NCBI GenBank assembly: GCA_964035575.1
Contig: OZ037844.1
Location: 1,674,001 to 1,738,000, forward strand
Direction: 5' to 3'
DNA from: Rhynchopus sp. YZ270_cl-10
Lineage: Eukaryota
DNA: 64,000 nucleotides
Position numbers and translations under genes: made by a program. The notes under the pieces are model-generated. The model was not told where the DNA came from. It saw nothing but the letters and a program-made list of their open reading frames with translations, and did no database searches. Positions 7,217 to 20,581 of this stretch are shown one piece after another (positions within the stretch are counted from its first letter, which is position 1; each line of letters opens with the position of its first letter).

Positions 7217-7762
7217 CCCTCTCCCTCTCCCCCCTCTCCCCCCTCTCCCCCCTCTCCCCCCTCTCCCCCCTCTCCCCCCTCTCCCCCCTCTCCCTCTCCC
7301 CCCTCTCCCCCCTCTCCCCCCTCTCCCCCCTCTCCCCCCTCTCCCCCCTCTCCCCCCTCTCCCCCCTCTCCCCCCTCTCCCCCCTCTCCCTCTCCCCCCT
7401 CTCCCCCCTCTCCCCCCTCTCCCCCCTCTCCCCCCTCTCCCTCTCCCCCCTCTCCCCCCTCTCCCCCCTCTCCCCCCTCTCCCCCCTCTCCCCCCTCTCC
7501 CCCCTCTCCCTCTCCCCCCTCTCCCCCCTCTCCCCCCTCTCCCCCCTCTCCCCCCTCTCCCCCCTCTCCCCCCTCTCCCCCCTCTCCCCCCTCTCCCTCT
7601 CCCCCCTCTCCCCCCTCTCCCCCCTCTCCCCCCTCTCCCTCTCCCCCCTCTCCCCCCTCTCCCCCCTCTCCCCCCTCTCCCCCCTCTCCCCCCTCTCCCC
7701 CCTCTCCCCCCTCTCCCCCCTCTCCCCCCTCTCCCCCCTCTCCCTCTCCCCCCTCTCCCCCC
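7217..7762. repeat. (TCTCCCCCC)n homopyrimidine microsatellite, block 1
   Basis: 9-nt unit with interspersed TCTCCC units. Further blocks at 13066-13752, 14038-14110, 19539-19832 and 20231-20545. Confidence 0.97.
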
Positions 7763-8170
7763 TGAAACACGCTTTAGCGGAGCAGCTTCGCTGCGTGTTG
7801 GGAGATCTTTGATAGAGACTACCGTCCTTTTGATTTGACATGGCACGCACACTGCTATTTGGCAGAATATTTATTTGATTTTCCTCAGGCTTTGTCCTGG
7901 TTGGCCGGGGTCCGTTTATGTTTCAGTCTCTACCCTCACCAAATCACCACACCATCTTCATCAGATTTTTTGTTGGAATTTGTTTTGGGTTGTTTCGGCT
8001 TCCACATTCGCCCCCCTCATCTTTTTGTTCCCCCACACACGATTCTTCGCTTCGCATCCATCTTCTCGTCCCCTTCCAAGCCACCTAGACGTCTCGGTAG
8101 TGTGCAGCCTGCTGGGACATATACACCACCTTCGACTCCGCCTTCTCCACCCAGTGCACCCCTCGACGCT

Positions 8171-9424
8171 ATGGCCACAGCACACATCACCGATTGTGCT
8201 ACGCTGTTGGCGGCGTTCGAGGCGCAGACGACGAGCCAGCACGACTGGTCGCCTCCGGATGCGGCCCTGCGTGCGCTGGGCGTGGAAGAGGGCTCCCCTG
8301 CGCTGGTGGGACGCAAGATCCAGTTCGCGGATCTGGCGCGGACGATGCGGGCCCTGGATAAGGAAGTCGCCCGCCACACCGGCGTCCAGGGGCCAGGGCA
8401 GGTGACGCGGTTGGCGATTGTGTCCGCCATCCTCGTCCTCCTCAAGGCGGAGGTGACGGAGGCGAACAGCGCGATGTTCTCAGAGGGCCAGCGCATGTCC
8501 CTCACGCGCCTGGTCGGCACCCTCACGGTGCTGTCCACGGTGCTGGGGGACCCCGAGACCCGGTCCCGCCTCAGCGGTTCCCGCCCCCCCGCCACCACCG
8601 CCGAGACGCCGGTTTTGCCTCAACGTGAGGACAGCCCGGAGGCGTCCATCCCGCGCGAGCAGCAGCCGCAGCAGCCGCAGCAGACGCAGCCGGCGGCGGA
8701 CAACGCGCGGATCGCGCAGCTGGAGGCTGCGATGATGGAGTTGGCGGCAGCGAAGCGGGAGGGGGACGCGCGGCACGAGCTCCTGTGCCAGCAGCTCAAC
8801 GCGGTCAGGGACGGTGGTGCGCCTCCTCCGGCAGCTGCAGCATCGGACTTCCTGGCGCAGTTACGGGCGGCGATCGGCACCGGGGCAGCGGCGCCTATGC
8901 AGGTGGAACAGCCGGTTATGGGGACGGACGTGGACGTGGTGGCACGCAACCCGAGACACTGGGTGGATTTTTGCGCCGACGCCGACCACTGCGCCGACGC
9001 TCTGGTGCAGGCCCTGAAGAGGCGCCTGCCTACCGAGGCCGGCGACGCGCAGGACGGGGCCCGCTTCGCCGTTGATGTGGTGGGTCTGTTGCTGCAGCAA
9101 GCTCCCTTGGAGGCGGTGCTGAGAAAGCTCGATGACAGTATCTCCTTCTGGCAGTTGAGGGCGAGTTGTGGGAGGTCGGGTGCGGTCGCCTTCCGCGACA
9201 AGGTCTGGACGGCGGATGTCGTGCCGAAGGACCGGCAGGCGGCGGTGGCGGCGGCGCACGCAGCAGGGCGTGGTGCGAAGTCCGGGCACGGGGGTGGCCG
9301 GGCCGGGCAGGCGTACGGGGGTGGCAACGGGGGGGGCCAGGCCGCGCAGCCGTACGCGCCGGGAAACGGTGGTGGCAGAGGCCGAGGCGGGGGAGGGCAT
9401 TGGCGCGGTGGTCAACGCAAGTGA
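8171..9424 (+). CDS. Gag-like ORF1 of YR element 1
   Basis: First ATG after repeat A1. Coiled-coil region and Gly/Arg-rich tail; homologous to 14489-15910 (DVVARNPRHW vs DVARDPLRW; ISFWQLR vs LSFWELR). Confidence 0.8.
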   Translation: MATAHITDCATLLAAFEAQTTSQHDWSPPDAALRALGVEEGSPALVGRKIQFADLARTMRALDKEVARHTGVQGPGQVTRLAIVSAILVLLKAEVTEANSAMFSEGQRMSLTRLVGTLTVLSTVLGDPETRSRLSGSRPPATTAETPVLPQREDSPEASIPREQQPQQPQQTQPAADNARIAQLEAAMMELAAAKREGDARHELLCQQLNAVRDGGAPPPAAAASDFLAQLRAAIGTGAAAPMQVEQPVMGTDVDVVARNPRHWVDFCADADHCADALVQALKRRLPTEAGDAQDGARFAVDVVGLLLQQAPLEAVLRKLDDSISFWQLRASCGRSGAVAFRDKVWTADVVPKDRQAAVAAAHAAGRGAKSGHGGGRAGQAYGGGNGGGQAAQPYAPGNGGGRGRGGGGHWRGGQRK

Positions 9425-18678: not shown

Positions 18679-19831
18679 AATTCTGTGACTGTTGTGTCTC
18701 TTATAGATTATCATTAGCATTCTTTTTATACTGTTATTCCTTTTTTATTTTTGTTTGCCCCTTCTTTGGCGGCTTTTGGTCTGTCTCACCGGGTGCCCTA
18801 TGGGCCCACTGGGGGTCGGCCGCTTTTATTTTTCTGCTGTGTTGTCGTGCGTCGGGTGGTGGGCTCTCCATCCTCTCTGCACTCTTGAACACAGGCCTTT
18901 TTTTGTTCGGCACCTCGGTGCTGGGTCTGCTTGGGTGCTGTTGTAGCTATTCTACGTGACCGGGTCAGGGTGTGTTTTCTGCCTTGCGTCCCCCTCATCG
19001 TTTTCGTTTACAGCATATTATCCAAAGACCTCCTCTCCATCCCCCCTTTCTTTTGCCTTTATCATCAGTTCTGGAACCGGTTCGTCGGTCTCCTCTATTC
19101 CTCACTTTTATTGGCTGTCTATATCCTATACTAGATCTCCTATCAACCACCCTGGTGGAGTGGCTTTTGCCACGATTGGGGAGATCTAATGGATATAGAC
19201 TGACTATCTTTTATGTTGACTTTTGTTCTTGCTCTATTTGGGCAGAATAGCTATCATTTCCTCGGAACTCTTCGAGTTCCGGTTGGCCGGGAACGCAGCT
19301 GTGCCGATTGACCCCACCTTTAACACAATTCAACCACCATCTTCATCAGGATTTCTTTGTTTTTGTTGCGGTGTGTTTTCTGCCTTGCGTCCCCCTCATC
19401 GTTTTCGTTTACAGCATATTATCCAAAGACCTCCTCTCCATCCCCCCTTTCTTTTGCCTTTATCATCAGTTCTGGAACCGGTTCGTCGGTCTCCTCTATT
19501 CCTCACTTTTATTGGCTGTCTATATCCTATACTAGATCTCCTCTCCCCCCTCTCCCCCCTCTCCCCCCTCTCCCCCCTCTCCCCCTCTCCCCCCTCTCCC
19601 CCCTCTCCCCCCTCTCCCCCCTCTCCCCCCTCTCCCCCCTCTCCCCCCTCTCCCCCCTCTCCCCCCTCTCCCCCCTCTCCCCTCTCCCCCCTCTCCCCCC
19701 TCTCCCCCCTCTCCCCCCTCTCCCCCCTCTCCCCCCTCTCCCCCCTCTCCCCCCTCTCCCCCCTCTCCCCCCTCTCCACGCTCTCCCCCCTCTCCCCCCT
19801 CTCCCCCCTCTCCCCCCTCTCCCCCTCTCCC

Positions 19832-20234
19832 CCTATCAACCACCCTGGTGGAGTGGCTTTTGCCACGATTGGGGAGATCTAATGGATATAGACTGACTAT
19901 CTTTTATGTTGACTTTTGTTCTTGCTCTATTTGGGCAGAATAGCTATCATTTCCTCGGAACTCTTCGAGTTCCGGTTGGCCGGGAACGCAGCTGTGCCGA
20001 TTAACCCCACCTTTAACACAATTCAACCACCATCTTCATCAGGATTTCTTTGTTTTTGTTGCGGTGTGTTTTCTGCCTTGCGTCCCCCTCATCGTTTTCG
20101 TTTACAGCATATTATCCAAAGACCTCCTCTCCATCCCCCCTTTCTTTTGCCTTTATCATCAGTTCTGGAACCGGTTCGTCGGTCTCCTCTATTCCTCACT
20201 TTTATTGGCTGTCTATATCCTATACTAGATCTCC
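19832..20234 (+). mobile_element. Solo A-B terminal repeat of YR family 2
   Basis: Near-identical to A2-B2 of element 2 (19139-19541), with microsatellite on both sides. Confidence 0.9.
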
Positions 20235-20581
20235 CTCTCCCCCCTCTCCCCCCTCTCCCCCCTCTCCCCCCTCTCCCCTCTCTCCCCCCTCTCCCCCCTC
20301 TCCCCCCTCTCCCCCCTCTCCCCCCTCTCCCCCCTCTCCCCCCTCTCCCCCCTCTCCCCCCTCTCCCCCCTCTCCCCCCTCTCCCCCCTCTCCCCCCTCT
20401 CCCCCCTCTCCCCCCTCTCCCCCCTCTCCCCCCTCTCCCCCCTCTCCCCCCTCTCCCCCCTCTCCCCCCTCTCCCCCCTCTCCCCCCTCTCCCCCCTCTC
20501 CCTCCCTCCACGCTCTCCCTCCTCTCCCTCCCTCCACGCTCTCCCCAACAACACTTTCCCTCCAAGGTGGGTGTGTTCAAG

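What the first reader, a model, noticed from the sequence alone, without database searches (positions are those of the whole stretch)
7217..20545. Three families of YR retrotransposons all targeted to one (TCTCCCCCC)n microsatellite
Seen: two full elements and two solo A-B repeats, all in the same orientation, with every end abutting the array. The element junction cores (CCCT, TCTCCT, CCCC) match the array. Known: YR retroelements integrate a circular cDNA by recombination over short homology, and TATE is associated with telomeric repeats. Inference: a lineage specific for a polypyrimidine microsatellite. I do not recall this target being described.
Basis: partly seen in the sequence, partly recalled or inferred. 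Interest (0 to 1): 0.8.

Follow-up and report, generated by a model that had tools for sequence, protein, structure and literature searches.

The report
Retrotransposons homing on CT-rich tracts
Three related families of recombinase-using jumping genes have piled into one long CT-rich repeat in front of a gene of a single-celled eukaryote, but their copies elsewhere sit in other CT-rich stretches, so they likely aim at such stretches in general and may insert from a folded single DNA strand.

Summary
Confirmed: two full tyrosine-recombinase (YR) retrotransposons (F1, F2; gag-like, YR, RT/RNase H; repeats A1…B1-A2-B2) and two solo A-B units (F2 and a third family) sit, all on one strand, in a 1.9-kb (TCTCCCCCC)n array just upstream of CNOT1. 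Their nearest named relatives come from diplonemids; the layout is VIPER/TATE-like. The claim of specificity for this microsatellite is too narrow. In public runs, 6 of 6 displayed F1-type junction flanks were other C/T-rich tracts such as (TC)n, and 0 of 6 were the 9-mer, although array flanks may be filtered out. The target is more likely a CT-rich tract with a TCTCC-like core, typical of gene-upstream pyrimidine tracts here; the array is a hot spot. All families share an AGATCTCC/GGAGATCT inverted pair (39 nt apart in F1 and F2). It folds the circle junction into a hairpin (z about -7) with family-specific paired outer arms, and the crossover lies at the top of that stem with only 2-7 bp of target homology. 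This suggests integration from folded single-stranded cDNA (untested). TATE already targets a simple repeat, so this is a new variant of a known kind.

The parts
7217..7763 (+). Array segment 1, (TCTCCCCCC)n with some TCTCCC units
7764..8021 (+). F1 repeat A1 (carries the right arm GGGAGATCT; last 34 nt shared with the start of B)
8171..9424 (+). F1 gag-like ORF (417 aa; no Pfam hit; 28% identical to F2 gag)
9361..9367 (+). G GGA AAC heptamer in phase for a -1 shift from gag into the RT frame (predicted)
9425..10555 (+). F1 tyrosine recombinase ORF, in frame behind the gag TGA (first ATG 9560); R, HxxR, H, Y residues present
9136..12261 (+). F1 RT/RNase H frame, open across the whole YR ORF; RT and RH domains in the last 570 codons
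12554..12699 (+). F1 repeat B1 (ends AGATCTCCCT)
12670..12760 (.). F1 B1|A2 circle junction, folds as a hairpin; crossover at 12696-12699
   Evidence: junction bridged in runs X1, X4, X6, X7 and X7, X8
12700..13069 (+). F1 repeats A2 (12700-12957) and B2 (12924-13069)
13070..13752 (+). Array segment 2
13753..14042 (+). F3 solo A-B unit (left end may begin up to 5 nt earlier, within TCCCC)
14043..14112 (+). Array segment 3
14113..14385 (+). F2 repeat A1
14489..15910 (+). F2 gag-like ORF, interrupted by TAG at 15695-15697; G GGA AAC at 15802 in the same phase as in F1
15911..16993 (+). F2 tyrosine recombinase ORF, in frame behind the gag TGA; 53% identical to F1 YR
15556..18678 (+). F2 RT/RNase H frame, open across YR; 56% identical to F1 over the RT/RH part
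18969..19541 (+). F2 repeats B1 (18969-19140), A2 (19141-19417), B2 (19370-19541); junction hairpin 19110-19200
19542..19833 (+). Array segment 4 (holds one TCTCCACGC variant otherwise seen at the array's 3' end)
19834..20234 (+). F2 solo A-B unit
20235..20546 (+). Array segment 5, degenerating 35 nt before the CNOT1 ATG
20582..24720 (+). Host CNOT1-like gene (flank; one probable GT-AG intron near 24136-24280)

Best explanation
The cluster is a hot spot where three related VIPER/TATE-like tyrosine-recombinase retrotransposon families inserted, all on one strand, into an expanded CT-rich tract upstream of CNOT1; their target is likely any G-poor, CT-rich tract with a TCTCC-like core rather than this 9-mer array alone. 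Shown: the anatomy, the shared AGATCTCC/GGAGATCT arms, 2-7 bp of homology at the crossover, non-array CT-rich flanks for F1-type copies, and a sense-strand bias of such tracts in the window. Inferred: (1) an RNA running from A1 into B2 is reverse transcribed and the ends are rebuilt from the split repeats, so B meets A; (2) the YR recombines the end of AGATCTCC with a target that resembles it, which fixes the orientation; (3) the donor junction is probably used as a folded single strand, with one strand exchange finished by replication; (4) solos arise by A1 x A2 recombination; (5) the tracts are probably the host's trans-splicing pyrimidine tracts, a safe intergenic address, and the array offers about 200 such sites in 1.9 kb; (6) RT/RH is likely made by a -1 frameshift at G GGA AAC, YR by read-through or an internal ATG.
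For: Domains and repeats. Junctions. Clustering beyond uniform chance, p about 5e-5, but p about 0.29 under a TCTCC-word preference. Flanks: 6 of 6 displayed crossover rows (13 contigs, runs X1 and X4) are C/T-rich with no G within 15 nt of the crossover, and 5 contigs extend the match to TCTCCCT. CT runs of 16 nt or more with CTCC or CTCTC outside the cluster: 12 on + and 2 on -, including tracts before the LRR and WD40 genes. Hairpin z -7.4/-7.8 (F1, + and -) and -7.2/-6.3 (F2), 0 of 200 shuffles in each of 4 folds. Outer arms share only 5-11 of 25 letters between families, yet own-family pairing is reached by 0 and 1 of 2000 shuffles in F1 and F2; spacing is 39 nt in both. An F1 variant keeps the outer stem with other letters (run X7 record 18). 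A different contig of 100,430 bases carries F1, F2 and a further family, a hint of a second hot spot. RT frame without stops across YR: 26 and 40 of 5000 synonymous shuffles. DIRS-1 cDNA is single-stranded (PMC7192593).
Against: Only 13 of 35 loose-end rows were shown, several are mixed consensus (agreement 0.69-0.73), and array flanks may be filtered out, so the share of copies in 9-mer arrays is unknown. No flanks of F2 or F3 were seen outside the window. A plain TCTCC rule explains the cluster only within the window: with an assumed 100-Mb genome the array holds about 0.1% of such words (own arithmetic), so catching rare F2 (3 protein members) and F3 needs a stronger pull to long arrays. 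The F3 outer arms alone are not significant (251 of 2000 shuffles) and pair as well with F1's right arm. The F2 full copy has TCTCC on both sides, which a clean crossover in a standard unit does not give. Host identity and trans-splicing are inferred. No activity was tested.
Confidence: 0.68

Rival explanations
1. The lineage is truly specific for long (TCTCCCCCC)n arrays, as TATE is for telomeric repeats; other flanks are minor off-target sites.
For: 4 of 4 F1/F2/F3 units in the window lie in the array, none outside; rare families share the site; array flanks could be hidden by the read tool's filters.
Against: 0 of 6 displayed crossover flanks are the 9-mer; the longest core match, TCTCCCT, fits the minor array unit and (TC)n tracts better than the main unit.
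Confidence: 0.2
2. Insertion needs only the 2-3-base core known from DIRS1-like elements; the CT-rich pattern comes from selection (copies survive between genes) and from array growth after insertion.
For: 3-bp rule for DIRS1-like elements (PMC3266345); the F2 solo shares only CC with its target; intergenic bias from selection is discussed for Ngaro (PMC8547959).
Against: Intergenic DNA here is largely T/A-rich and plentiful, yet all four units lie within the array and on one strand; flanks in reads are C/T-rich on both sides.
Confidence: 0.08
3. The junction is used as ordinary double-stranded circular DNA; the inverted arms serve RNA folding, priming or strand transfer during reverse transcription, not recombination. 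This rival concerns step 3 only.
For: The standard model uses a double-stranded circle (PMC7192593, PMC3266345); both strands fold alike in F1; the YR model's best matches are Cre, XerA and XerH, not an integron integrase (low-confidence model).
Against: In duplex form the two arms lie 39 nt apart, far more than the 6-8-bp spacer of simple YR sites (recalled); homology to the target is 2-5 bp in the window; the crossover sits at the top of the conserved stem in F1 and F2.
Confidence: 0.45
4. The cluster is an assembly artefact, or the array is a tail made by the elements.
For: Not checked with long reads; a non-LTR element in this window does end in its own long repeat (62241-63167).
Against: Three distinct families; array segments differ in their variant units; the solo differs from the adjacent A2; the B1|A2 junction holds no array, so the element does not carry it; the junction is bridged in five runs of five studies.
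Confidence: 0.04

Closest known systems
VIPER-like YR retrotransposons of kinetoplastids (VIPER, TATE; PMC6681497, PMC12278014)
   Same: Split direct repeats A1…B1-A2-B2; gag-like ORF, then overlapping YR and RT/RH; no methylase; solo A-B unit like SIRE; euglenozoan relatives. Read by eye in the paper's supplementary copies (not computed), one TATE and one VIPER junction also have inverted arms around the crossover.
   Different: RT clade of its own among the hits, with diplonemid sequences (FastTree support 0.93; no VIPER/TATE reference in the tree); RT motif WIDD/YLDD, whereas the C. fasciculata VIPER and L. braziliensis TATE copies read by eye have IDN; RT frame overlaps the whole YR; target is CT-rich.
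TATE of Leishmania braziliensis (PMC2696322, PMC6681497)
   Same: YR retrotransposon inserted at a fixed phase of a simple repeat, in clusters, over a 2-base core.
   Different: TATE targets telomeric GGGTTA; here the site is interstitial, upstream of a gene, shared by three families, and the phase within the unit varies between insertions.
Ngaro and PAT-like elements (PMC3783388, PMC8547959)
   Same: Same repeat layout, solo AB repeats.
   Different: YR follows pol there; here it precedes RT/RH.
Integron attC sites and CTX-phage attP (PMC4792948 and PMC2727003, abstract starts; CTX recalled)
   Same: Works-like comparison: a YR acting on a folded single strand with little homology to a duplex partner.
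   Different: Bacterial; activity on folded DNA is proven there and only predicted here.
Microsatellite-specific non-LTR retrotransposons such as Kibi (TC) and Koshi (TTC) (recalled, no call)
   Same: Pyrimidine microsatellites as a safe target.
   Different: Endonuclease and target-primed reverse transcription, not a recombinase.

Membership tests
DIRS order (YR retrotransposons) | Tyrosine recombinase with catalytic R, HxxR, H, Y | tested here: met
   Pfam Phage_integrase E 3.5e-5 (below cut-off) and 1.9e-7; residues; fold matches Cre and Xer
DIRS order (YR retrotransposons) | RT and RNase H, no DDE integrase | tested here: met
   RVT_1 and RVT_3 hits, no integrase hit
DIRS order (YR retrotransposons) | No target-site duplication; short core shared by junction and both ends | tested here: inconclusive
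   Clean for F1 and the F2 solo; F2 full has TCTCC on both sides; slippage in the array blurs this
VIPER-like (VIPER, TATE) | Split direct repeats A1…B1-A2-B2 | tested here: met
VIPER-like (VIPER, TATE) | Order gag-like, YR, RT/RH with YR and RT/RH overlapping; no methylase | tested here: met
   definition in PMC12278014
VIPER-like (VIPER, TATE) | RT groups with VIPER and TATE in a tree | not testable with these tools
   No labelled VIPER or TATE protein came back; the tree lacks references
VIPER-like (VIPER, TATE) | Euglenozoan host | tested here: inconclusive
   Named relatives from Lacrimia, Sulcionema, Diplonema, Rhynchopus; Atlas clusters mostly Euglenozoa on 3 labelled members each; the CNOT1 search gave no close named hit
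TATE (narrow sense) | Insertion in telomeric GGGTTA repeats | tested here: not met
   Target is an interstitial CT array between two genes
Ngaro | YR after pol | tested here: not met
   YR precedes RT/RH; order in PMC3783388
DIRS1-like | Long inverted terminal repeats with internal complementary region, methylase | tested here: not met
   Direct split repeats, only short inverted arms, no methylase hit
Folded single-strand YR sites (attC, CTX attP) | Site folds into a conserved hairpin with the crossover at a stem edge | tested here: met
   (F1, F2; F3 weaker)
Folded single-strand YR sites (attC, CTX attP) | Recombinase acts on the folded strand, not the duplex | not testable with these tools
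   needs biochemistry

The most novel reading that the evidence does not exclude
Split-repeat YR retrotransposons integrate like integron cassettes or CTX phage: their single-stranded cDNA junction folds into a hairpin att site whose AGATCTCC arm is mimicked by host CT-rich trans-splicing tracts, so an undescribed diplonemid lineage homes to gene-upstream pyrimidine tracts and piles up in their expanded arrays; the same fold-back seems present in TATE and VIPER.
Probability: 0.35. Interest if true: 0.8.

Novelty: new variant of a known kind. Interest (0 to 1): 0.52.

Why it matters
How YR retrotransposons choose targets and what DNA form their recombinase uses is open: PMC7192593 states that YR specificity has not been studied experimentally. 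This locus gives a young, multi-copy family (47 protein members, 0-3 residue differences among 11 full-length ones compared), a 331-aa recombinase, a 90-nt donor site with natural compensated variants and a simple target, so the question is directly testable. It also extends VIPER/TATE-like elements with defined ends beyond kinetoplastids and suggests pyrimidine tracts as a safe harbour in trans-splicing protists.

Tried and rejected
No whole genome is held, so no genome-wide flank logo. No RNA holder listed; the run types are not on record. Scans for related loci gave 12 metagenome loci, 11 of them distant (19-26% identity) and one of 33% without ends, none with the AGATCTCC arms; 0 of 13 candidates in viral contigs; 1 short hit of 86 in prokaryote genomes. 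A 41-sequence profile search returned 8 proteins and no named VIPER or TATE. The CNOT1 search did not name the host. The Atlas search with gag gave only scores below 0.8. The PDB sequence search with YR gave E 0.27 at best; the structure model is weak (pLDDT 59). A pair count on alignment A1 was not obtained. Depth differences between ends and body (ends 5-10 times deeper) may reflect deleted copies or RNA but are not copy numbers and were not used. PMC15765 (SIRE/VIPER) is not held; PMC12440569 (outline only) was irrelevant. Rejected: the array as an element-borne tail; simple assembly duplication; the minus-strand YR element at 50.1-53.7 kb as a member of the lineage (other clade).
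Full report
Observation. Five segments of a (TCTCCCCCC)n array (1,903 bp; 187 copies of the 9-mer against 3 in the other 50.7 kb) are separated by four inserts, all on the + strand: full element F1 (7764-13069), a solo A-B unit of a third family F3 (13753-14042), full element F2 (14113-19541) and a solo F2 unit (19834-20234). F1's repeat copies are identical; F2's A1 and A2 differ at one site and the solo carries the A1 letter, which argues against a collapsed or duplicated assembly. F3 aligns with both other A-B units beyond 300 of 300 shuffles, but no F3 coding region is in the window. 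The array lies between an LRR gene (stop 6976) and a CNOT1-like gene (ATG 20582). Long-read confirmation was not possible; the B|A junction itself is bridged by contigs of five public runs from five studies, one or more of which may be the source.

What the elements are. Each full element has a gag-like ORF without Pfam match, a tyrosine recombinase with the catalytic residues (53% identity between F1 and F2; fold matches Cre and Xer with a weak model) and an RT/RNase H ORF (56%), with repeats A1…B1-A2-B2 and no methylase or DDE integrase. This is the layout given for VIPER and TATE (PMC12278014, passages; PMC6681497, Results section in three parts and passages). Solo A-B units are known as SIRE and in Ngaro (PMC8547959, passages). 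F1 has 47 protein members, a sister family 5, F2 3. Of 150 listed relatives (2,580 at E 0.001) I looked up sources for 20; the named ones come from Lacrimia, Sulcionema, Diplonema and Rhynchopus. A FastTree tree of 78 RT/RH sequences (top hits covering more than 250 residues; midpoint root, no VIPER or TATE reference) puts F1 and F2 in a clade with the Lacrimia and Sulcionema proteins and several more unnamed ENA families (support 0.93). The host is therefore probably a diplonemid or near relative (inference; the CNOT1 search, did not settle it). D. papillatum is reported to have over 60 ORFs resembling TATE, MULE or Helitron proteins, not curated (PMC10161547, passages).

Is the target this microsatellite? 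Insertion is not random: p about 5e-5 for three insertions in the array if uniform within the window. A preference for the word TCTCC alone raises this to 0.29. Of 35 loose-end rows 13 were shown; 6 of these lie at the crossover (runs X1 and X4, 13 contigs; two rows belong to an F1 variant). All 6 are C/T-rich and free of G within 15 nt of the crossover: (TC)n, or irregular tracts; 5 contigs extend the identity with the element end to TCTCCCT. None is the 9-mer. The other 7 rows are arm variants or related families away from the crossover. Against over-reading this: rows are partly mixed consensus, 22 rows were hidden, human-like or repetitive contigs are dropped without notice, the run type is unknown, and F2 and F3 were not tested. 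In the window, comparable CT runs are strand-biased (12 on +, 2 on -) and include tracts before the LRR and WD40 genes. Diplonemid mRNAs are trans-spliced, so these are plausibly acceptor pyrimidine tracts and the array an overgrown one (inference). A word preference does not fully explain why rare families met here: at 2.1 TCTCC per kb and an assumed 100-Mb genome the array holds about 0.1% of sites. Long arrays must pull harder, or many exist. A separate 100,430-base contig is listed for F1, F2 and another family; the window's own contig is longer.

The donor site. All three families end in AGATCTCC and carry GGAGATCT near the start of A; in F1 and F2 the two lie exactly 39 nt apart at the B|A junction. 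The 91-nt junctions fold with z from -6.3 to -7.8, 0 of 200 shuffles in each of 4 folds. The outer arms share only 5-11 of 25 letters between families but pair within the family (F1 0 of 2000, F2 1 of 2000 shuffles; F3 251 of 2000, not significant alone), and a variant F1 contig keeps the outer stem with other letters. The crossover lies at the top of the conserved stem, with 4 bp (F1), 2 bp (F2 solo), 5-6 bp (F2 full) and up to 7 bp (reads) of identity to the target. Simple YR sites have arms 6-8 bp apart (recalled); folding would bring these arms together. DIRS-1 makes single-stranded cDNA that can complete transposition, while the accepted model still uses a duplex circle and YR specificity is said to be untested (PMC7192593, passages); DIRS1-like elements recombine over 3 bp (PMC3266345, passages). 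Integron integrases act on folded single strands with replicative resolution (PMC4792948, PMC2727003; abstract starts). I put the folded-strand step at about even odds against an RNA-level role of the arms. Read by eye in supplements of PMC6681497 (file 1 part 1 and a search, file 2 part 1), the L. braziliensis TATE junction and one C. fasciculata VIPER junction also have inverted arms (8 of 9 plus 6 of 6 letters; about 17 of 19 letters); this was not computed, and the remaining supplements were not read. The main text has no 'hairpin' or 'secondary structure'. Earlier notes of this scan report similar fold-backs in Ngaro elements and a GGA-repeat DIRS insertion; they are unchecked leads, and I had noted the hairpin before the look-up.

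Expression. In F1 and F2 the YR ORF follows gag in frame behind TGA, and a G GGA AAC heptamer near the end of gag is in phase for a -1 shift into the RT frame, which has no stop across YR (26 and 40 of 5000 synonymous shuffles). A frameshifted Gag-RT/RH protein is likely but untested. F2's gag here has an internal TAG.

Comparison and novelty. TATE already shows a YR retrotransposon inserted at a fixed point of a simple repeat (PMC2696322, passages), so repeat targeting is known in this group. I found no description of a CT-tract target, of diplonemid YR elements with defined ends, or of a junction hairpin in split-repeat elements in the held library (searches; most subscription papers and Repbase are not covered). 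Membership of VIPER-like is met by layout and untested by phylogeny; TATE, Ngaro and DIRS1 in the narrow sense are not met.

Verdict. Observation confirmed; interpretation partly supported. New variant of a known kind. Interest 0.52; the folded-strand, pyrimidine-tract-homing reading has probability about 0.35 and would deserve 0.8.

Noticed in passing
window 49915-53807, minus strand: A fourth YR retroelement (gag-YR in one frame, RT/RH broken at a C run near 51790) of another clade, with a WIDN motif and Diplonema/Rhynchopus relatives; no split repeats found; flanked by 4 x 88-bp and 5 x 22-bp tandem repeats.
   Followed up: partly
window 58502-63167: A long RT ORF (1296 codons stop to stop; CRE/SLACS-like by recalled motifs) runs straight into 116 copies of ACCCGCAA: a tail or a second microsatellite target.
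   Followed up: no
window 9361-9367 and 15802-15808: The same in-phase G GGA AAC heptamer at the end of gag in F1 and F2; the -1 frame stays open over the whole YR gene; one copy elsewhere (P0024) has gag fused in frame to RT at a G run just upstream.
   Followed up: partly
window 20582-24720: The CNOT1-like gene seems to stop after about 1,330 codons with no C-terminal half following in the window; possibly a split or partial gene.
   Followed up: no
window 26968-45400: Tandem family of CAP + Pro/Thr-rich + WD40 genes, 89-99% alike, probably secreted or surface proteins; three copies have TCTCCCCCC upstream.
   Followed up: no
window 7988-8021, 12554-12587, 12924-12957 (F1); 14342-14385, 18969-19016 (F2): A and B overlap: the end of A equals the start of B and occurs once in A2B2, a possible strand-transfer region.
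   Followed up: no
   Followed up: partly
window 7217-20546, minus strand: The array reads (GGGGGGAGA)n and could form G-quadruplex or triplex DNA, which might make it a hot spot; not tested.
   Followed up: no
L007:1-4294: A distant metagenome element with split direct repeats (A about 118, B about 88 bp).
   Followed up: no
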